IMG/VR virus record: IMGVR_UViG_3300035498_000877
Coordinates: 96,001 to 160,000 of that record
Length of the DNA stretch: 64,000 nt
Strand: one strand, 5' to 3'
Origin: a virus
Taxonomy: Duplodnaviria > Caudoviricetes
Below, one piece after another: positions 1,353 through 10,500 of the stretch. Position 1 is the stretch's first letter; each line of letters opens with the position of its first letter. The notes beneath the pieces are model-generated. The model was given only the letters and a program-made list of their open reading frames with translations, was not told where the DNA came from and did not search any database. Position numbers and translations under genes: made by a program.

Positions 1353-3353
1353 TTATTTTAATACTATCTTAACTATGTTATCAGATACTCTTTTAATTAC
1401 TCTATAACCACTATCTGATTTAGTAGCTATTGAATTATCATTACATTTACAATATCCATTTACTTCACATGTACCATCATCATATACAGCAAGTACACCA
1501 AGCATACCAATAGCACTCCATTCTGGTCTATCATCTCTTTGAATATAACCTTTATCTAGATCATAATCAGGATTTACTTTATAGAACTCTACTTCTACTT
1601 CCTGATCTACTTCTTCAATAGTGGTATTACCATTTTCATCTTTAATTTCCTGCGGTACTTTAATAGTTTGCATAGTTTTTTCTTTAATATATGCCCCAAA
1701 TTCATCTTTCATGAATTTACCTTGCCACTCAGTATCAGTATTACCAAGTACACATGGATTAGCAGATACTATTCCTAGTACCCAATCTCCTTCTTTGGCA
1801 AGTACAATTTTATCTTCAGATAATGTTACAAACTTTCCTCTTCTATCTTCATTATCTGGATTACCATCTAACCATTCGAAGTACTCTGCATAGTCAGCAC
1901 CAGTTGCAGAATATGCAGCTTGAGCATATGTCGCTCCATCATAATCGACTCTAAATGCATTACTATCACCAGCTGATGTACCGTTACCAATTACAAATGC
2001 AGTGCCACTAGTATCTTTAATAGTTCCTCCAGTTGCTAATTCTGGATCATTATAATGACCTTGTGCATGTTGATAGTCTTCAGCAATGGTATACCAACCT
2101 TCTGCGTGTGAAACACCGCCATTAGCTTTAGTAGCATATCCTTCTGCATGCGATTCTCCTCCAATTGATTGTGTCCCGTAACCTTCTGCATGCGAGTAAT
2201 TTCCTTTAGCTTTACCAAATCCTTCTGCATGTGAGTAATCACCAGATGCTGTGGTACTATTACCTTCAGCATGCGATCCAGGACCAGATGCAGTAGTATA
2301 ACCACCTTCAGCATGAGAACTATTTCCTGAAGCTACTGTAGTATCACCTTCAGCATGAGAACATAAACCACTGGCAATAGTACTTTCACCCTCAGCATGC
2401 GTACTATCCTTAGTAGCTGATGTAGTATTTCCTTCAGTGTGACTATAAGTACCAGATGCTGTAGTTTTATAACCCTCTGCATGTGATGCAGTACCAGTAG
2501 CAGTAGTACCTTCACCTTCTGCATGTGAGTAATCACCAGATGCACTTACCCAACCACTTTCTTTACCATATTCACATCCTGCGCCCTCGGCATGAGAACA
2601 TGAACCTGTTGCTTCAGTACGATATCCCTCAGCATGAGAGCAAGGATCTATTGTACTGGTATCATATCCTTCAGTATGAGAATAATCACCTGATGCATAA
2701 CTATATCCTTCTGAATGTGAATATTTACCCTTAGCCTCAGAATACAGTATATCTTCAGCACTAGATCCACCATCATCAAGATGTCCACCACCCTCAGCAT
2801 GAGAATAATCACCAGAAGCTTTAGTTAAAGTACCCTCAGCATGAGATCCTTTACCACTAGCTTTAGTACCAGATCCTTCTGCATGTGAGTAATCACCAGA
2901 CGCTTCTACATATATTAGAATTTCATCATTTATATTACGCATATATCCTTCGGCATGGGAACCTTCACCGCCAGCAATTGTATCTGCACCCTCGGCATGA
3001 GAATAATCACCTGATGCTGTAGTATTATTACCTTCAGCAGTAGAACAATCTCCAGCATCTGTTTCTTTTTTTCTTCCAAGATTTATTGAAGCATCACTGT
3101 ATATTGATAGTTTAGCATATTCATCATCAGCTCCAATATTGGTTCTGATATTATCCTTTTCTTCATCAGTAAGTTCTTGTACTTCAGTAGATACTGCTTT
3201 GTAATTCTCCACATTATCCAATCCAATTGTAGATTTAGTAATATTATGTGGATTTAATGTATCAATATGCTCTTGTAATTTATTATCAACATCCTGTTTG
3301 CTTACATCAATTAGAGTCTTTATTGAATTTTCACCAGCATATTTTTTGCTCAT
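1353..3353 (-). CDS. Tail fibre/spike with SHAEG beta-roll repeats and C-terminal peptidase G2-type autocleaving chaperone domain
   Basis: More than 20 copies of a ~14-aa xSHAEGxxTxASG repeat; ADYAEYFEW...GIVS...W..IGMLG C-terminal domain; N-terminal NPHNITKSTIGLDNVEN fibre motif. Confidence 0.8.
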   Translation of the reverse strand: MSKKYAGENSIKTLIDVSKQDVDNKLQEHIDTLNPHNITKSTIGLDNVENYKAVSTEVQELTDEEKDNIRTNIGADDEYAKLSIYSDASINLGRKKETDAGDCSTAEGNNTTASGDYSHAEGADTIAGGEGSHAEGYMRNINDEILIYVEASGDYSHAEGSGTKASGKGSHAEGTLTKASGDYSHAEGGGHLDDGGSSAEDILYSEAKGKYSHSEGYSYASGDYSHTEGYDTSTIDPCSHAEGYRTEATGSCSHAEGAGCEYGKESGWVSASGDYSHAEGEGTTATGTASHAEGYKTTASGTYSHTEGNTTSATKDSTHAEGESTIASGLCSHAEGDTTVASGNSSHAEGGYTTASGPGSHAEGNSTTASGDYSHAEGFGKAKGNYSHAEGYGTQSIGGESHAEGYATKANGGVSHAEGWYTIAEDYQHAQGHYNDPELATGGTIKDTSGTAFVIGNGTSAGDSNAFRVDYDGATYAQAAYSATGADYAEYFEWLDGNPDNEDRRGKFVTLSEDKIVLAKEGDWVLGIVSANPCVLGNTDTEWQGKFMKDEFGAYIKEKTMQTIKVPQEIKDENGNTTIEEVDQEVEVEFYKVNPDYDLDKGYIQRDDRPEWSAIGMLGVLAVYDDGTCEVNGYCKCNDNSIATKSDSGYRVIKRVSDNIVKIVLK

Positions 3354-3957: not shown

Positions 3958-5189
3958 TTATTCATCTTCTAATCTAGCAAATTTTGATAAATTATTTTTG
4001 AATAGTTGGACAATATTATCAGTTAGATGCTTTTTCTTAAATGGTATATTGTCCATAACCCATTCCATCATCTCATCATAATCATTACCAATCTCATGAG
4101 GATGTAATTTCATCCATATTACATATGTTTTGATTAATTTATTCAGATAATAATATTCGGCTTTAGTACACAATATAGTTGCATCACCAAAACGATATTC
4201 ATTAACTATTTCTTCATCTTCTGCTTGTCCAATAAATTCATCTTCATCATCTATTGTTTGCATTTCAACACCTAATGATTTAAGATAAACTTGTAATATT
4301 TCAGATGTTCTAGAAGTAAATGAATCAGGAATATTATATTTATTATCATCTGATAAAATTGCTTCATACATATATTTTCTACCATCTACTGAAGATCTAT
4401 ATAATGCAGTAATTAATGCAAAGTCTTCTGGGTTAGTTATGATCATGAAGTTGGGCATTTCATATTCGCCGAACCTGATTGGTTTGCTAGAATACCAAGA
4501 TTTACCTATCTTATTTTCATGAGATTTCTCTGGTAATCCCTCATCAGATATTGATCCAGATGAACGTACTGAGAATCCCTTTTCACCTGATTGTTTTAAC
4601 ATCATCATATACTGATATCCAATATTATCACTACCTATATAGATATCTCTACCCCACTTTGGTTTAGGTACAAATATATGATATGGAGTGAATATATCAG
4701 GATATTTTTCATATACCTGAATAATCTTATCTCTCCATGTTTTATAATCAGGCTCTGAACTATCTTCAAATGCTTCCCATCTGATATATAATGTATCATC
4801 AGTTCTTAATGTACCATCTCTATTCAAATTAATGGTACTATCAATAAATTTAACTTTCTCTCGGTCTGATAATCCATCATAAATATTTTCAAATTCTTTA
4901 GCTTCTTTTTCATTAAGTATTTTCATGATATCAAATAAGAATTCTTTACGTTCTTCATTTGTTTCCAAAGTGGCAGCATGTTTTCTAGCAATGTCTTGTA
5001 TGTATGTAACACTACCTTCAAGCATAACCATTGGAATAGTTCTATTAATAATAGCTAGAGGATTTGTAATCATATCTACTCTTTCGATAATACCTTTTGG
5101 ATGTTTAACTCCATATTTATCTACAGTATATTCCCTAGTAAGATATGGCATTTCTTCATCTGCTCTAATCTGACAAATCACTGTTTTGT
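3958..5189 (-). CDS. rpoB: RNA polymerase beta-like (C-terminal) subunit, exon 2; probably non-virion RNAP
   Basis: Splicing restores GRHG-N-KTVI; also DMITNPLAIINR, YMMMLKQ, RSSG, RFGEYE and LQVYLKSLG beta motifs. Spliced product about 794 aa. Confidence 0.88.
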
Positions 5190-6019
5190 CATTTCCTTCA
5201 CATAGTTCGCAACACTATGCAGTTCTCTTATGAACTTCTCATACTCTCGTATGACAATAATCTATCTCAAGGTTAAGGTGTATTTCTACAGTTGAGACTA
5301 TATCTTTAGCTCATTTATATGAACAGAGCTAGGCTTTTCCAATTAAGGGAATTTCACCCGCTACCATTAGCTTGTAGCCGTACTCCTGTTGGCTTGTTAG
5401 GCCCGAGGGATAGTCGTTGAACTTCTTTATTTTGATATACTTTACATGCATAATGCATATGTTATAATTAATTGAATTATATGAAAACATTGATCTTGTA
5501 TCAAATTAATCTTCAATAAATTCGCTTTAATATGATCTATGATATAATGAGCAATTGAATTTACAAATAACATGATTGTTATAATAAGATATTTATCTTC
5601 ATTATGATAATTATAAATTACAATTGGTAGCATTATACAGAATGCCCATTGAAATGAATGCAAATATAATGCTATAATATAATCATATTGATATAAAGGT
5701 GATGGAGCATTTTCTTCCCACCACTTTTTCTGTTTCATAGATCCCATTAATCCTTGTAAGTTAAAATCAGCAAATATGTGCATAAATAACATTGCTGAGT
5801 ATACTATATATTTTGGAATAATCATAATATCACTTCCTTTCTTATTGGAAGTATATCAAAATAAATTTAGCTGCGGATCTTCTCTATTAACTACATTATT
5901 ACTATACCTAAGGCATTACCCTTCGCCATCATTATATTACTATAATGATTTAGTAGTGTTACTTTACAAGATTTGCCCGCAATTAACCTAGTTTTACATG
6001 GGCCAAAACATACATATGC
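5190..6019 (-). ncRNA. Group I intron (830 nt) in the RNAP beta gene, carrying an internal ORF
   Basis: Minus-strand P (aattgcgggcaaatc), Q (gatccgcagctaa), R (gttcaacgacta) and S (aagatatagtc); P1 CAUGGG/CCCAUG; P10 UGUUUUG with exon-2 CAAAACA; terminal G; removal restores frame and motif. Confidence 0.9.
5442..5825 (-). CDS. Intron-encoded DUF3307-like small membrane protein
   Basis: HIFADFNLQ...LH...HYIIDHIK...DQCFH pattern with hydrophobic helices; own RBS (AAGGAAGTG). Confidence 0.75.
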   Translation of the reverse strand: MIIPKYIVYSAMLFMHIFADFNLQGLMGSMKQKKWWEENAPSPLYQYDYIIALYLHSFQWAFCIMLPIVIYNYHNEDKYLIITIMLFVNSIAHYIIDHIKANLLKINLIQDQCFHIIQLIITYALCM

Positions 6020-7172
6020 TCCCATGTCGGCCTACGATCTTTCGGCCGATGATTGCTTGTTCTTTCTTACGTACTAAAATCTCTACCATCATATTAGAGA
6101 ATACATTATCATTATATGCCCATACTGCTTGAGTATCTAGATAATTCATTGCAATTCTCTTCCAATGATTAATATTTTTATGGATATTTTTACATCCCGA
6201 TTTCAGTATCTTATTGCATATTTTATATACCTTAGTATAGAACCATCTGCTGTCATTGTAATATTGAACAAGTTGTTTATTCACTTTATTAACTTTTATA
6301 TTGGAATTATTGCAATAGATATTGATATCAATTATTTCACCATCTGCATAGAATATTTGATCTGTTTGAGCATTGATGTGAGTAAGTGAAGAATCTCTGA
6401 GATCTGAAAACATTCTAGTCTCTTTAATGGTACGAGTAGCTGCCAATATACCATTATCTATTTTATCTCCAATATTAGGAAGTCCAATATAATCGTTATT
6501 ATCCTTCCCATATAAATTCAATAGAATCGTATTTTCATTGATTGGTATTGTAATAGATTTCACATTATTAGTCACCATTCGTTTTGCAAATGATTCTGAT
6601 ACTACAATAGCATCATCCTGTACAGCTGGATCAACCCCATACAATATTCTTCCATTAATACCAACTCCAACATTCATATCTTCATCATATGATGTAGATG
6701 CATATACTAATGTATCTTTGGATATAGTTTCACCAACTTCGCATTGATCCAGAAAATCATTATCATAAGCAAATCCAAAATTTTCTGTTAGATCCTCTAC
6801 CTCTTTGCGTTCCAATACAATATACTTATCTTCTTTCTCTGAATATAGAAAGTATAGTGCCATATAAGATTTACCTTTTAACAGTTCTTCATACTTCTTA
6901 GCAATATCAACTACTTTGTAGTCAGTATCGGCACGAAAATAATTTGAAGATTGCTCACCTATTAGATTCTCCTTACCATCAAAGAACATAGGAAATTCTG
7001 GATTATCAATTGCTAAATGTTGAACCTTATGTTTGATATTCATGGTAGATCTCATAACATTGTTACCACCAGGAAAATCTCCTTGACCAACTAAAGCTAA
7101 TCTTTTGTTACCTTTGAGCTCTTCATTTTTCTTTTGAAGTTCGTATATAAGGTTATACTTCTCTCTAGCCAT
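6020..7172 (-). CDS. rpoB: RNA polymerase beta-like (C-terminal) subunit, exon 1
   Basis: ATG at 7172 after AGGAGG; motifs NNVMRSTM, GINGR, QDDAIVVSESFA and GRKIVGRHG. Confidence 0.88.
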
Positions 7173-7229
7173 TTTACTTATTCCTCCTTTAAAAATGTTA
7201 ATAGTAATAGTTCTCACTTACCGAAAAAG

Positions 7230-7318: not shown

Positions 7319-8725
7319 ATGAATATTGAATTAGTTGATATGAATAGGATTATAGGTGTTAATAAGTTAGAAGAAGTCAGTGGACCTAGATTATTTTCTT
7401 CTAAGATGACTTATGATCCTGCAGGTATATTATCGAATGAAATATTTGGTATTTCTAAACAAGATAGACGTAATACATTTGCCTATATAAATCTTAGAAG
7501 ACCTTTTATTCATCCGCATATCTATAATAATGTATTGATACCCACATATCGAAAAGCTATTGGTATTGTTGCTGGTCAGAAATATGTAAGTGTTAAAGAT
7601 GGAATTATAATAGATGATCCTGATAATGGATGGACTGGTATATCTAATTTATATTCACATTGGGATGAAATAGACTGGAAGAAAGTCAAACTCAATGAAT
7701 CCAATAATAGATCACTATTAGTGAATCTAAAAAGAGATCAAGTATTTATTGACAAGATACTAGTATCACCACCAGCCTATCGTGATGTAATGATTAGTGG
7801 TACAGTAGATTCTTCAGATCATGTCAGTGAAGTAAATGATTTATATTTAAAATTAATCAGATCAGTTGCTTTATTATCTGAGGGAGGAATGTTTGCTAGA
7901 ACACAGTATGCCACTCAGAAAAATATACAGGATACATTAGTAGCTATTTATAATTACTATAAGAATCTTATATCAAAGAAACAAGGATTGATCAGAAAGT
8001 ATTTACTAGGTAAGAGTGTTGACTATGGTACCAGATCAGTTATATCAGCTCCATCTTATAACCATGAGAGATTTGAAGATAATATAATTGATATGGATCA
8101 CTCTGCAATACCAATAGAACAATGTTGCTCTAACTTTTATCCATTTATAGAAGCATGGGTAAAAAATTTCTTTACAAGGGAAATTATTAATGATCCAAAT
8201 GTAATGACTTTTTATGACCCAGAATTGAAAAGAGAAATTACTGCATCTATTAAAGATCCAGAAATACAATTCTCTGAAAAGAATGTAAAGAAGATGATAA
8301 ATGATTACTGTTTGAATCCTGATAATAGATATAAAATAATAACAATGGATGTTGTTATTCCCACAGCTAAAGAGGATAAAATATTGAAAGCAAATCTATT
8401 ATTGAAAGGAAAAGTAATTCTTCCTAATAATGCTTCTACCCAATTAGCAAGACAACTAACAGTAACAGATATCTTATATTTGGCATGTGTTGATGTATGT
8501 GAAAAAAGACATATAATGATATCAAGATATCCTGTAGGTACAGATAAAGGAATATACTTTAATAAGATAAGAGTTCAATCAACACGTAATCATATTAAAT
8601 TAGTATTCAATGGAAAAGAATATCCTTTTTATCCAGATATACGATTAGATACTGATCATGATAAAGTAGGAATTCAATTTATTGATTCATTAGTTCTATC
8701 CAATGCTCATTTGGATGGCATGGGT
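7319..8725 (+). CDS. rpoC: RNA polymerase beta'-like subunit, exon 1; probably virion RNAP
   Basis: GILSNEIFG, FAYINL, PPAYRD, KQGLIRKYLLGKSVDYGTRSVI and SRYP motifs; ends DGMG directly before the catalytic motif. Confidence 0.9.
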
Positions 8726-9096
8726 AAATCAGTGCTCATGTAAAACCTTTTTAACTGCCGGGAACTCCATTAATCATAAATAACTGCAGCTAGTAGTGAT
8801 ACATAGTGTAGCAATATACATAACGGTATATGGATAGTAAAATCATTTATGATTGGATAATCATAGGCAGCCAAGTATCTATATTTATATAGATAAAGGT
8901 TCAGAGACTATCGGCCAACTATAATATGCGAGAAACTCGGTATTAATAGTCATTAGAGTAGATCTATCACGATAGATAGACCACCAATCTTGGCAGGAAG
9001 TGGAGTAATTCGAAATGGAAGGTGGGGGATATCGGTAACAGGTATTCTCTGAAGATATAGTCCAAAATTAAAGTTCTAACCCCAGTAAAATCGCTG
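8726..9096 (+). ncRNA. Group I intron (371 nt, no ORF) in the RNAP beta' gene
   Basis: Exon ends in U (GGU) paired with G in P1 (CAUGGGU/GCUCAUG); P10 AUCAGU with GCUGAU; P actgccgggaa, Q ggcagccaag, R gttcagagacta, S aagatatagtcc; terminal G9096; splicing gives DGMG-ADYDGD. Confidence 0.93.
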
Positions 9097-10500
9097 GCTG
9101 ATTATGATGGCGATGTACTTAGCTTAAGGGGTATATGGTCCGATGAAGCTAATCAAGAAGCTGAAGAGATCATGAATAAGAAAATAAGTGTATTAAATAT
9201 TACTGGTACTAATGCTAAAGGAGTATCTAAGGAATTAGTAAACTCTATGTACGAATTAACTAAAACTATGAAAGGATCTAGATCAATCAATGAAGAAGAA
9301 ACTAAAGAATTACTTAGTATTAGTTTTAACGATATTACTAGAAGTAAACTTGCAGATTGGTTTGCTGATACAGTAGATTGTTCAGTAAAGAATCAAGCAG
9401 GTAAAAGACATTCTAGGTTTAATACATGGGATCTAATGAATGTTCCTAGAAATTATTTTTATGATGGACAACCTGCATTGACTACTACTGTAGGTAAATT
9501 TGTGTACAATAAATTTGTATTGGAAGCATCTGGAATTATTGGTGCAGTAGGATATATATCTGATACTATCAATAAAGGCAAGAATGGTGATATTGATAAT
9601 CTAGTAGGAGATCTTTTATTGAATGATAAAATTAATAAGACTCAATTCAATAATTATATTGATAGAAGAGATACTTTAGGTTATTGGATAAATGGCATGT
9701 TAGCACATACAATATCTGAAAAGATGCTTAAGCCATTACCAGAAGTTGAGAAGAAGAAAGCAGAATTAATTAAAGCACATGAAAAAGAATTAGCTGAAGG
9801 AAATATTGATGTAATGACTCAGATAAGTGATGAGCTTGTTTCTTATGCTAAAGATATACTTAAAGATGATCCTGGCATGGATCTATATACTTCGGGTGAT
9901 CTTGATTTTGGTAACAATTATAAATGTAATTCAATATTGAAAGGTGCTGTAAAGAATGAGATCACAGGTGAATATGATTTTATTGGATCATCATTTATGG
10001 ATGGTATTGAAATTAAAGATATTCCATCACATGCAAATTCAATATTGGCATCTCAATATCCTGCATCAATTGCAACTAAAGATGCTGGTTATCTCGGTAA
10101 GAAATTATTAGCATTACTTCAGATGATGGAATTAGATGAACCTGATACTGATTGTGGTACTAAACAATTGGTACCAGTAGAAATTACCAAATCTAATAAA
10201 TCCAATATGATATATTCATATATAGATGAGGGTGGCGGAAAACTCACTATGCTAGATAATTCTAATATTGGATCATATATTGGAAAGACTGTTAAAATGA
10301 GATCTCCTATGACATGTACTGGTCAAAAGATATGTTCTAAATGTGCTGGTAAACTATTCTATATGATAGGAGCTGAACATATTGGATTATTTGCAGTACA
10401 GATTTCACATGCTGATCTTAACTTGGCATTGAAAGCTAAACATGATGCATCAGTAAAACTTCATGTTTTTAATCCTGATGAAATCCTTGAGGATATTTAA
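9097..10500 (+). CDS. rpoC: RNA polymerase beta'-like subunit, exon 2 (catalytic DYDGD, bridge helix, Zn site)
   Basis: ADYDGD is in frame with the 9172 ORF; TKDAGYLGKKL, DCGT, RSPMTC and CSKCAG motifs. Spliced product about 936 aa. Confidence 0.9.
   Translation, partial: ADYDGDVLSLRGIWSDEANQEAEEIMNKKISVLNITGTNAKGVSKELVNSMYELTKTMKGSRSINEEETKELLSISFNDITRSKLADWFADTVDCSVKNQAGKRHSRFNTWDLMNVPRNYFYDGQPALTTTVGKFVYNKFVLEASGIIGAVGYISDTINKGKNGDIDNLVGDLLLNDKINKTQFNNYIDRRDTLGYWINGMLAHTISEKMLKPLPEVEKKKAELIKAHEKELAEGNIDVMTQISDELVSYAKDILKDDPGMDLYTSGDLDFGNNYKCNSILKGAVKNEITGEYDFIGSSFMDGIEIKDIPSHANSILASQYPASIATKDAGYLGKKLLALLQMMELDEPDTDCGTKQLVPVEITKSNKSNMIYSYIDEGGGKLTMLDNSNIGSYIGKTVKMRSPMTCTGQKICSKCAGKLFYMIGAEHIGLFAVQISHADLNLALKAKHDASVKLHVFNPDEILEDI

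What the first reader, a model, noticed from the sequence alone, without database searches (positions are those of the whole stretch)
5190..6019. Group I intron carrying a DUF3307-like membrane protein instead of a homing endonuclease
Seen: the 127-aa ORF (5442-5825) lies between the Q and R elements. It is bracketed by a perfect 17-bp inverted repeat (5426-5442 / 5849-5865) that would loop it out of P6. It has no HNH, GIY-YIG or LAGLIDADG motif; it is hydrophobic with HxxxDF, HxxxD and DQxxH motifs. Known: phage group I intron ORFs are nearly always homing endonucleases. Inference: the intron acts as a neutral landing pad for a cargo gene inside an essential RNAP gene.
Basis: partly seen in the sequence, partly recalled or inferred. 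Interest (0 to 1): 0.8.

Follow-up and report, generated by a model that had tools for sequence, protein, structure and literature searches.

The report
Phage intron carrying a membrane-protein gene
A self-splicing group I intron in an essential RNA polymerase gene of a 289-kb phage carries a small membrane-protein gene where such introns normally carry a homing nuclease, and related phages have nothing, a nuclease or another small gene at that exact spot.

Summary
Window 6019-5190 (minus strand, 830 nt) is a group IA-type intron. It splits the Asn codon of the invariant GRHGNK motif in an AR9-like RNA polymerase beta gene of a 289-kb phage. Removing it gives an 809-aa protein that aligns without a gap to intact homologs. 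A gut metatranscriptome holds a 406-nt circular contig, about 95% identical, joined exactly 6019|5190. That contig has a 5-bp GAAA hairpin in place of 5425-5864. The P6 loop holds a ribosome-binding site and a 127-aa ORF, closed by a perfect 17-bp stem. The ORF belongs to DUF3307 (PF11750): four predicted membrane helices, all family-invariant residues, no nuclease domain. Every homolog context I examined is a free-standing gene. Orthologous introns at the same site in related phages have an empty P6 (three DNA loci plus the RNA circle), an HNH_3 nuclease (L049, identical junction in L050) or an 87-aa antisense orphan (one). P6 of this intron therefore accepts varied cargo. The cargo's function, its expression and exon ligation in this phage are not shown. 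The 5' splice site has A.G instead of U.G in all orthologs. I rate it a new variant of a known kind.

The parts
6020..7217 (-). Exon 1 of the RNA polymerase beta-like gene. It ends ...IVGRHG plus the first base (A, 6020) of the Asn codon. The true start codon inside 7217-7170 is uncertain.
   Evidence: ORF. The spliced protein is 29.6% identical to AR9 gp088 over 716 residues, E 6e-85. Homologs are 62-72% identical.
5190..6019 (-). Group IA-type self-splicing intron, 830 nt. First base is G6019 and the terminal (omega) G is G5190.
   Evidence: RF00028 hits, paralog family, circular RNA contig joined 6019|5190, in-frame exon junction.
6021..6027 (-). P1, 5' strand (exon bases ACAUGGG). A6020 at position -1 follows it.
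   Evidence: Complementary to 5996-6002.
5996..6010 (-). Internal guide sequence. The P10 guide UGUUUUG is 6004-6010, G6003 lies opposite A(-1), and the P1 3' strand CCCAUGU is 5996-6002.
   Evidence: Direct reading. P1 is recovered in the MFE fold. A G opposite A(-1) is also present in L036, L037, L041, L048 and L049.
5976..5991 (-). P3 5' strand (CUAGG, 5987-5991), J3/4, and P4 5' strand / P element (UGCGGG, 5976-5981).
   Evidence: Pairs with 5329-5333 and 5872-5877.
5878..5975 (-). Extended P5 arm, including a 9-bp hairpin with a GUAA tetraloop (5928-5949).
   Evidence: MFE fold. Conserved in paralogs.
5872..5877 (-). P4 3' strand / Q element (UCCGCA).
5849..5865 (-). 5' arm of the 17-bp P6 closing stem.
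5425..5864 (-). 440-nt block that is absent from the ~95% identical circular RNA relative. It comprises most of both stem arms, the SD and the ORF. The relative has 16 nt there forming AUCUA-GAAA-UAGAU.
   Evidence: Joint 5424->5865 with 16 letters between the two sides (tables 5, 5c and 8).
5829..5840 (-). Shine-Dalgarno-like AAAGGAAGUGAU, ending 3 nt before the AUG.
   Evidence: Direct reading.
5442..5825 (-). Cargo gene: a 127-aa DUF3307 / phrog_2470 protein modelled as four long, largely hydrophobic helices. The last base of its stop codon is the first base of the 3' stem arm.
5426..5442 (-). 3' arm of the 17-bp P6 closing stem.
5410..5422 (-). R element GUUCAACGACUA, with the P7 5' strand GACUAU at 5410-5415.
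   Evidence: alignment. P7 pairs in 9 of 9 related introns, with a double compensatory change in L034.
5334..5409 (-). P7.1/P7.2-type hairpins between P7 and P3', the hallmark of subgroup IA.
   Evidence: GCUAC/GUAGC against GCCAC/GUGGC.
5296..5333 (-). P3 3' strand (CCUAG, 5329-5333), P8 hairpin (5309-5329), and S element with the P7 3' strand AUAGUC (5296-5301).
5190..5290 (-). P9 (UGUA-GAAA-UACA, 5279-5290), P9.1 (GAGA loop, 5239-5254), two further hairpins (5222-5235 and 5201-5219), and omega-G at 5190.
   Evidence: Compensatory changes in P9.1 between paralogs.
3958..5189 (-). Exon 2 of the beta-like gene, starting with AC of the Asn codon and then KTVICQIRADEEMPY. Bases 5182-5188 (CAAAACA) can pair with the P10 guide.

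Best explanation
This is an 830-nt group IA-type ribozyme intron inserted after the first base of the Asn codon in the invariant GRHGNK motif of the beta-like subunit gene. The gene encodes part of an AR9/PBS1-type multisubunit RNA polymerase in a 289-kb phage.

How it most likely works:
- The ribozyme removes itself from the transcript, so an 809-aa beta subunit can be made.
- The short peripheral P6 hairpin has been replaced by a perfect 17-bp stem. That stem closes a 406-nt loop holding a complete gene (ribosome-binding site plus 127 codons) for a DUF3307 four-helix membrane protein. The stem brings the two ribozyme halves together, so the cargo does not disturb the catalytic core.
- The cargo is not a homing endonuclease. 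Elsewhere it is an ordinary free-standing accessory gene of large phages and some bacteria.
- I infer that it is translated from the pre-mRNA or, more likely, from the abundant excised intron RNA.
- I infer that it is a passenger, sitting in a slot that in sister and orthologous introns holds a homing endonuclease, another small gene, or nothing.

Shown: the intron anatomy, the exact ends, ribozyme cleavage at both ends in a close relative, the family membership of the cargo, and the variable content of P6 at the same site.

Inferred: exon ligation in this phage, translation of the cargo, and its role. My best guess for the role is a metal- or proton-binding membrane protein, because conserved His/Asp pairs lie one helical turn apart on each of the four helices.
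For: Intron:
- RF00028 matches the R, S, P7, P8 and P9 regions at E 5e-5.
- The 3' half is 84-92% identical to ORF-less paralogs in the same genome that score up to 55.8 bits.
- P7 pairs in 9 of 9 related introns, with a double compensatory change. Compensatory changes also occur in P7.2 and P9.1.
- P1, P3, P4, P5, P6, P8 and P9 are recovered by folding the ORF-deleted sequence.

Ends:
- The junction gives GRHGNKTVIC, matching intact homologs GRKIVGRHGNKTVVC without a gap. AR9 gp088 is contiguous across the site.
- A circular 406-nt contig, about 95% identical and at depth 26, sits in an RNA-seq library and is joined 6019|5190.

Cargo:
- PF11750 above its cut-off and phrog_2470.
- All 18 invariant columns of a 34-sequence alignment are kept.
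- AF2 model with pLDDT 96.8 and four long helices. It matches a DUF3307 Atlas cluster at TM 0.93.
- Codon usage fits the phage: CAI-like 0.80 against 0.73 +/- 0.04 for the genome's long ORFs.
- A strong SD precedes it.
- The identical locus is on record in six contigs; the three fetched (three other samples) match the window 100%.
- Eight homolog contexts (seven by contig look-up, plus the unannotated phage record MT835469 read as ORFs) are all tightly packed, free-standing genes. Six that I checked have no flanking inverted repeat.

Same-site comparison:
- Empty P6 in L036, L041 and L037 intron 2.
- A 269-aa HNH_3 ORF between Q and R in L049 (identical junction in L050).
- An 87-aa antisense orphan with its own SD in L048.
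- Sister introns in this genome hold HNH_3/NUMOD4 and other ORFs just before the R element.
Against: - No exon-exon junction read was seen. The exons had no cover in the RNA run.
- A full-length circle arises by a pathway that does not ligate exons, so ligation is still inferred.
- The circle comes from an ORF-less relative, not from this phage. Only one 151-nt contig (depth 3) in the RNA library spans the start of the ORF.
- The base before the 5' splice site is A, not the near-universal U. This could lower splicing efficiency.
- As it stands, the Rfam score is below the gathering threshold.
- There is no evidence that the cargo is translated, and no own promoter was found.
- The DUF3307 fold has no convincing solved relative, so the function is a guess.
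Confidence: 0.85

Rival explanations
1. The DUF3307 protein serves the intron itself, as a new kind of mobility, maturase or competition factor. It would then be analogous to PhiPA3 gp210, which gives its phage an advantage over co-infecting relatives, and would not be a passive passenger.
For: It occupies the slot that holds HNH_3 endonucleases in orthologous and sister introns. Intron-borne genes in jumbo-phage RNAP genes can act in phage-phage competition (PMC11620839). The ORF keeps all family-invariant residues.
Against: It is predicted to be an integral four-helix membrane protein with no nucleic-acid-binding or nuclease domain. The eight homolog contexts examined are free-standing genes with no intron nearby, in unrelated phages and bacteria. 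Four same-site introns need no such protein.
Confidence: 0.07
2. The ORF is a silent relic or a chance open frame. The insert is decaying DNA that the ribozyme tolerates.
For: Neither translation nor a promoter is shown. The homing-endonuclease cycle leaves decaying ORFs in such loops; L038 holds a frameshifted HNH_3 remnant. All fetched copies are 100% identical, so selection cannot be measured.
Against: The full-length frame fills almost the whole insert. All 18 invariant residues are kept at only 39-54% identity to relatives. It scores above the Pfam cut-off. It has a strong SD at the right spacing. Its codon usage is better than the genome average. The model has very high confidence.
Confidence: 0.05
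3. There is no splicing. The two 407-aa ORFs are separate beta half-subunits, as in other jumbo phages with split RNAP genes, and 5190-6019 is an intergenic region holding a small gene.
For: Jumbo-phage RNAP subunits are often split into separate genes (my own knowledge). No exon-exon junction read was obtained.
Against: The break falls inside a codon of the invariant GRHGNK motif. The downstream ORF has no plausible start at the break: the called GTG lies inside conserved sequence. A full set of group I core elements lies between the two ORFs. A relative's copy is excised as a circle with exactly these ends. More than 80 homologs are single ~782-aa proteins.
Confidence: 0.03

Closest known systems
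Phage T4 td-type group IA introns with an ORF looped out of a peripheral stem (my own knowledge), and the HNH-bearing group I intron in the PhiPA3 RNAP beta gene (PMC11620839)
   Same: A self-splicing group I intron in a highly conserved motif of an essential phage gene. In PhiPA3 the host gene is also a jumbo-phage RNAP beta subunit. The ORF sits in a peripheral loop outside the catalytic core.
   Different: The ORF here is a membrane protein of family DUF3307, not an HNH, GIY-YIG or LAGLIDADG nuclease. The insertion site differs: GRHG|NK here, after a conserved DD in PhiPA3. The 5' splice site has A.G instead of U.G.
Hexacoral mitochondrial ND5-717 group I intron, which carries ND1 and ND3 (up to 15 OxPhos genes) in P8 (PMC8146996). 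Fungal rnl introns carrying rps3 are a second case (from my own knowledge and the reference list seen).
   Same: A group I intron whose peripheral loop carries ordinary, non-endonuclease protein genes. The excised intron is proposed to act as the mRNA precursor for the cargo.
   Different: Those cases are organellar, obligatory and vertically inherited, and their cargo is an essential core gene placed in P8. Here the host is a phage, the cargo is an accessory gene placed in P6, and the same site is empty, nuclease-bearing or differently loaded in close relatives.
Intron-rich gut jumbo phages and crAss-like phages (Jug phages, PMC12880540)
   Same: Large gut-associated phage genomes with many group I introns in essential genes, together with stand-alone and intron-associated HNH, GIY-YIG and LAGLIDADG genes. 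Splicing there was checked with metatranscriptomes.
   Different: That study reports only endonucleases and inteins as inserts. It describes no non-nuclease cargo.
Full-length circular group I intron RNAs of nuclear rDNA introns (PMC6274462)
   Same: An intron RNA circle in which the terminal G is joined to the first intron base, as in the 406-nt contig.
   Different: Here the circle is seen for a phage intron in a gut metatranscriptome, as an assembled contig only. It has not been checked by RNase R or outward-facing RT-PCR.

Membership tests
Group I intron | Conserved core pairings P3, P4, P6, P7 and P8 built from the P, Q, R and S elements | tested here: met
   The elements are located. P1, P3, P4, P5, P6, P8 and P9 appear in the MFE fold of the ORF-deleted RNA. 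P7 pairs in 9 of 9 related introns with a double compensatory change. The R and S elements align to RF00028.
Group I intron | Rfam RF00028 covariance model score at or above the gathering score (50 bits) | tested here: inconclusive
   29 bits, E 5e-5, for 5276-5524, and 11.7 bits for the 5' part. Nothing reached gathering level. The 440-nt insert in P6 splits the model. Paralogs with 84-92% identical 3' halves score 50.7-55.8 bits.
Group I intron | Terminal guanosine (omega-G) at the 3' end | tested here: met
   G5190. The circle junction joins it to G6019.
Group I intron | U.G wobble at the 5' splice site in P1 (near-universal, not strictly defining) | tested here: not met
   The base at -1 is A6020, opposite G6003. 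The same A.G occurs in all five DNA orthologs at this site. The neighbouring site 10 nt upstream has a canonical U.G (L034).
Group I intron | Precise excision that restores the host reading frame | tested here: met
   In silico only. The product is an 809-aa protein reading GRHGNKTVIC, gapless against intact homologs. Ribozyme cleavage at both ends is shown by the circle from a ~95% identical relative. Exon ligation itself was not observed.
Group I intron | Guanosine-dependent self-splicing in vitro | not testable with these tools
   Needs a bench assay.
DUF3307 (PF11750) / phrog_2470 | Profile score above the curated cut-off | tested here: met
   24.9 bits against a cut-off of 23, 25.3 bits in the genome scan, and phrog_2470 at 4e-12.
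DUF3307 (PF11750) / phrog_2470 | Family-invariant polar residues (H16, D20, D48, H56, H93, D97, D111, Q112, H115 and others) and the four-helix fold | tested here: met
   The window's ORF carries the residue shared by all 33 relatives at the 18 columns reported invariant (the alignment includes the ORF). AF2 pLDDT is 96.8. The model matches a DUF3307 Atlas cluster at TM 0.93.
Homing endonuclease (HNH, GIY-YIG, LAGLIDADG, His-Cys box, PD-(D/E)xK, EDxHD) | A recognisable nuclease domain or motif | tested here: not met
   Only PF11750 appears at E<=1. No PDB sequence match at E<=10. By contrast, ORFs in the same loop of L049 and L037 hit HNH_3 at 1e-10 and in the precomputed Pfam annotation.
Homing endonuclease (HNH, GIY-YIG, LAGLIDADG, His-Cys box, PD-(D/E)xK, EDxHD) | A soluble DNA-binding protein | tested here: not met
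   The model shows four long hydrophobic helices and no DNA-binding module. PHROGs labels the family 'membrane protein'.

The most novel reading that the evidence does not exclude
In this clade of jumbo phages, the P6 loop of group I introns acts as a general slot for accessory genes. The cargo would then spread with the intron by homing, driven in trans by sister-intron endonucleases or by recombination in the conserved exons. It would be expressed from the excised intron RNA, which is stable and may be circular. That would make the DUF3307 message a natural protein-coding circular (or intron-derived) mRNA in a phage.
Probability: 0.2. Interest if true: 0.8.

Novelty: new variant of a known kind. 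Interest (0 to 1): 0.62.

Why it matters
Phage group I introns are treated as ribozyme-plus-nuclease parasites. Here one insertion site in an essential polymerase gene shows four states of the same loop: empty, nuclease, a membrane-protein gene, and an antisense orphan gene. That suggests intron loops can serve as protected slots for accessory ('moron') genes.

An insert in such a slot cannot be removed imprecisely without destroying the polymerase gene. It can travel with the intron, and it may be expressed from an abundant excised RNA.

The finding also has practical value:
- It offers a natural test case for how much cargo a ribozyme tolerates, and for splicing at a non-canonical A.G splice site.
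- It warns annotators that ORFs inside phage introns are not necessarily endonucleases, and that Rfam thresholds miss cargo-bearing introns.

Tried and rejected
**Searches that found nothing**
- Rfam at gathering level over the whole window: no hit.
- Megablast of the locus against GenBank phages: none.
- The search for related loci with the single exon-2 protein: none. An alignment later worked.
- Exact-pattern scans for the empty-P6 junction and for the guide sequence in viral and metagenome contigs: no hits. The ORF-less 95% relative is therefore known only as RNA, and its host gene is unseen.

**Alternative junction.** A junction giving GRHGNDKTV scores lower and adds a residue absent from all homologs. 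The circle junction also contradicts it.

**Exon cover in the RNA run.** The exons had no cover in X1, so no exon-exon junction could be sought. I draw no conclusion from that gap.

**Function of DUF3307**
- PDB sequence profile: nothing.
- Foldseek against PDB: best E 2.5.
- VIA-align wide search: top Z 8.1 to a designed helical repeat, within the range expected for helical bundles.
- Atlas: only its own family.
- NCBIfam and PADLOC: none.
- A profile search found 763 clusters, almost all single-domain proteins of 120-145 aa; the longer forms gave no informative fusion.
- Neighbours vary: RtcB/Thg1, RNase T/OGG/Tpt1, radical SAM, dCMP deaminase and toxin-antitoxin genes. I draw no conclusion from them.

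**Other ideas tested**
- A hairpin between the 5' stem arm and the SD/start region, as a possible translation switch: z-score -0.62, not better than shuffles.
- Own promoter or terminator: sigma-70-like sites are fewer than in shuffles and there is no terminator. The phage's own promoter type is unknown.
- Variation among contigs carrying the identical protein: all 100% identical, so no test of selection is possible.
- The inverted repeat as part of a mobile DUF3307 cassette: six free-standing homologs have no flanking repeat longer than 7 nt.

**DUF3307 elsewhere in related phage genomes.** It is absent from G005 and G006 and from incomplete records. G007 has only a weak, free-standing, divergent copy at 19.6 bits.
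Full report
**Where the window lies.** The window is bases 96001-160000 of a 289,234-bp virus record rated complete. On the minus strand, two 407-aa ORFs (7217-5994 and 5181-3958) flank the finding. Neither hits Pfam. The downstream one matches the RNA polymerase beta subunits of Bacillus phages AR9 and PBS1 and related Staphylococcus and Listeria jumbo phages at about 24% identity. In AR9 the homolog gp088 is one continuous protein across the break and reads GRYGNKGVIS there.

**The observation.** All parts of it are present.
- The 127-aa ORF 5825-5442 has the stated motifs. It scores 24.9 bits on PF11750 DUF3307 (cut-off 23) with nothing else at E<=1. It also hits phrog_2470 'membrane protein'.
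- The perfect 17-bp inverted repeat 5426-5442 / 5849-5865 exists. No repeat that long appeared in 1000 Markov resamplings.

**Is it a group I intron?**
- At gathering level Rfam finds nothing in the window.
- A permissive scan gives RF00028 at 29 bits (E 5e-5) over 5524-5276, aligning the R element, P8, the S element and P9. A weak second hit covers the 5' part.
- The low score has a plain cause: the model is split by a 440-nt insert.
- The genome holds at least eleven other RF00028 matches, up to 55.8 bits. The 3' half of this intron is 84-92% identical to several of them.
- By direct reading I placed P1, the guide sequence, P3, P4 (the P and Q elements), a long P5 arm, P6, P7 (R and S), P7.1/P7.2-type hairpins, P8, P9 with a GAAA loop, P9.1 with a GAGA loop, and the terminal G.
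- Folding the ORF-deleted RNA recovers all of these except the pseudoknotted P7.
- In an alignment of nine related introns, P7 pairs in all nine, with a double compensatory change in one. P7.2 and P9.1 also show compensatory changes.
- The hairpins between P7 and P3' point to subgroup IA. This is my reading of the anatomy, not a classifier result.

**Exact ends.**
- Removing 6019-5190 joins GGG-A to AC-AAA. The result is an 809-aa protein reading GRHGNKTVICQIRADEEMPY.
- More than 80 full-length homologs of about 782 aa (54-66% identical over exon 2) read GRKIVGRHGNKTVVCSIW at this place.
- The only other in-frame option adds a residue and scores lower.

Independent evidence came from RNA. A gut metatranscriptome run holds a 436-nt contig at depth 26, laid as 5278-5424, then 16 other letters, then 5865-6019, then directly 5190-5307. 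The first and last 30 letters coincide, so it is a 406-nt circle. It is about 95% identical to the ribozyme parts.
- Its junction joins the terminal G (5190) to the first intron base (6019), the signature of a full-length intron circle (compare PMC6274462).
- It shows that in a close relative the ribozyme cleaves at exactly these two positions.
- It does not show exon ligation, because full-length circles form by a side pathway. The exons had no cover in that run.

**The insert.**
- In the circle, 5425-5864 is replaced by 16 nt that form AUCUA-GAAA-UAGAU, an ordinary short P6.
- In the window, P6 is the 17-bp stem closing a 406-nt loop. The loop holds AAAGGAAGUGAU, 3 nt, AUG and 127 codons. 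The last base of the stop codon is the first base of the 3' arm.
- A 151-nt contig with two mismatches in the same RNA run spans Q, the 5' arm and the start of the ORF, so an ORF-bearing form is present there too, at low depth.
- Six free-standing DUF3307 genes have no flanking repeat above 7 nt. The stem therefore belongs to the intron context. Sister introns have shorter closing stems around their ORFs.

**The cargo.**
- The ORF has 41 relatives at E<=0.001, none above 58% identity.
- A profile search finds 763 clusters, nearly all single-domain proteins of 120-145 aa.
- The ORF keeps all 18 invariant columns of a 34-sequence alignment. These include H16, D20, D48, H56, H93, D97, D111, Q112 and H115.
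- The AlphaFold model is very confident (pLDDT 96.8) and has four long helices plus two short ones.
- Each conserved His/Asp pair (H16/D20, H93/D97, D111/H115) lies one helical turn apart, on helices 1, 3 and 4. From where these residues fall along the four helices I infer that they cluster near one membrane face. By the positive-inside rule I infer that face is cytoplasmic, because it also carries the Lys-rich loops.
- No solved structure or named family resembles it convincingly.
- My best guess is a small metal- or proton-binding membrane protein. Confidence in that is low.
- Its codon usage fits the phage (0.80 against 0.73 +/- 0.04). It is the only DUF3307 gene in the genome.
- In eight other contexts examined (seven by contig look-up, plus the unannotated phage record MT835469), relatives are free-standing genes packed 4-20 nt from their neighbours, in phage-like or bacterial contigs with no intron.
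- The neighbours I tested (three of those contexts) have no homologs in this genome.

**The same site in related phages.** Related jumbo phages (beta 55-72% identical) could be read at this spot. Many have no intron there (L040, L045, L046, and the proteins).

| Site | Locus | P6 content |
|---|---|---|
| Same site (after GGG-A) | L036 | empty; 22 nt between Q and R |
| Same site | L041 | empty; 26 nt between Q and R |
| Same site | L037 intron 2 | empty; intron about 212 nt long |
| Same site | RNA circle | empty; 5-bp GAAA hairpin |
| Same site | L049 (identical junction in L050) | 269-aa HNH_3 endonuclease, HNH_3 E 1e-10; 828 nt between Q and R |
| Same site | L048 | 87-aa orphan ORF on the opposite strand, with a perfect AAGGAGGUGA and what looks to me like a terminator hairpin; 411 nt between Q and R |
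| 10 nt upstream (after GGU, canonical U.G) | L037 intron 1 | intact HNH_3 |
| 10 nt upstream | L038 | frameshifted HNH_3 remnant |
| 10 nt upstream | L034, L042/L043/L051, L044, L047 | empty (L034 read in full; for the others inferred from exon spacing, 255-430 nt) |

- In the window's own genome, sister introns carry an HNH_3/NUMOD4 ORF and two paralogous unnamed ORFs that end just before the R element.
- Earlier notes of this scan on the same genome report at least 15 related introns, some with endonucleases. My results agree.

**How it most likely works.**
- The ribozyme excises the intron, so the beta subunit can be made.
- The 17-bp stem holds the two halves of the core together and keeps the cargo out of it.
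- The cargo is an ordinary accessory gene sitting in the loop that otherwise houses a homing endonuclease.
- I infer translation from the pre-mRNA or, more probably, from the excised intron. In the relative, the excised intron is far more abundant than the exons. In hexacoral mitochondria the excised intron is proposed to supply the mRNA for intron-borne genes (PMC8146996).
- A ribosome terminating at the stop codon would have to open P6. Translation and ribozyme folding are therefore unlikely to coincide on one molecule. This too is inference.
- I cannot decide whether the insert was gained or the empty form lost it.

**Rivals.** A role of the protein in intron mobility or phage competition, a silent relic, and separately translated beta halves are each discussed with their evidence in the Rival explanations section. 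Together they carry about 15%.

**What is known.**
- Group I introns with peripheral-loop ORFs in conserved motifs of essential phage genes are classical. One with an HNH gene sits in a jumbo-phage RNAP beta gene (PMC11620839).
- Non-endonuclease cargo is known in organelles (ND1/ND3 in the ND5-717 intron, PMC8146996).
- Intron-rich gut jumbo phages have been described with endonucleases and inteins as the only inserts (PMC12880540).
- In the held library I found no report of a phage group I intron carrying a membrane-protein or other non-nuclease gene. That search is limited.
- I therefore class this as a new variant of a known kind.

**Verdict.** What remains open is expression, the function of DUF3307, exon ligation in this phage, and the consequences of the A.G splice site.

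Noticed in passing
window 6003 and 6020; L036 3579-3600; L037 3741-3775; L041 ~3113-3140; L048 2724-2775; L049 2476-2505: The base before the 5' splice site is A, facing a G of the guide sequence. This holds in the window and in all five DNA orthologs at this site, although the P1 sequences differ (CCCAUGU, CCCGCU, CCCAC, CCUCG). The circle junction shows that cleavage really occurs after this A's position in the relative. The intron site 10 nt upstream has a normal U.G.
   Followed up: partly
L048 2896-3303 (ORF 2974-3237, minus strand of the locus): In a complete 289,059-bp relative, the same-site intron carries in P6 an 87-aa helical orphan ORF on the opposite strand. It has a perfect AAGGAGGUGA 7 nt before its ATG and a GC-rich hairpin plus T-run after its stop. 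There is no Pfam, PHROGs or Atlas family, and no copy in four other related genomes.
   Followed up: partly
L037 3741-3750: A 10-nt mini-exon (CGCAGCGGGA) lies between two introns inserted 10 nt apart in the GRxGNK motif. The first intron carries an intact 245-aa HNH_3 gene and the second is an ORF-less intron of about 212 nt.
   Followed up: partly
window 8692-9079 (+): A second, ORF-less group I intron (RF00028, 50.7 bits) lies between ORFs 7319-8743 and 9172-10500. It is on the strand opposite the beta gene, presumably in another RNAP subunit gene.
   Followed up: no
own genome G000:C1 272027-273178 and 273664-274479 (outside the window; L013): Two paralogous ORFs (about 370 and 260 aa) end just before the R elements of sister introns. 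They share the motifs DVDGxIH and YQTDGL, and one has an N-terminal CxxC...CxxC and repeated W..M.DEEY modules. Neither has a Pfam family above its cut-off. They may be an undescribed or very divergent homing endonuclease family.
   Followed up: partly
L016 3953-4332, with 4065-4174: In a 183-kb related phage, a group I intron (63.9 bits) in a RecA/UvsX-like gene contains a stretch that scores as tRNA (34.3 bits, above the gathering score). The same phage has two tandem ORF-less introns (71-73 bits) further down its beta gene.
   Followed up: no
L028 3812-5384; the P0006 contig: Free-standing DUF3307 genes sit 4 nt after an RtcB RNA ligase gene (with Thg1 upstream) in a 274-kb contig. In another phage-like contig one sits between RNase T and OGG, near an RNA 2'-phosphotransferase gene. 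Other contexts differ, so this may be chance.
   Followed up: no
window 1353-3353 (-): A 666-aa protein with many SHAEG/YSHAEG repeats. The identical gene on another contig is marked Peptidase_G2, so it is probably a tail spike or fibre.
   Followed up: no
L053 1501-1911 (-), genome G007: A 246-kb relative without an intron at this site has a divergent, free-standing 136-aa DUF3307-like gene (19.6 bits, below the cut-off). It keeps HxxxD and DQxxH but lacks the first His.
   Followed up: no
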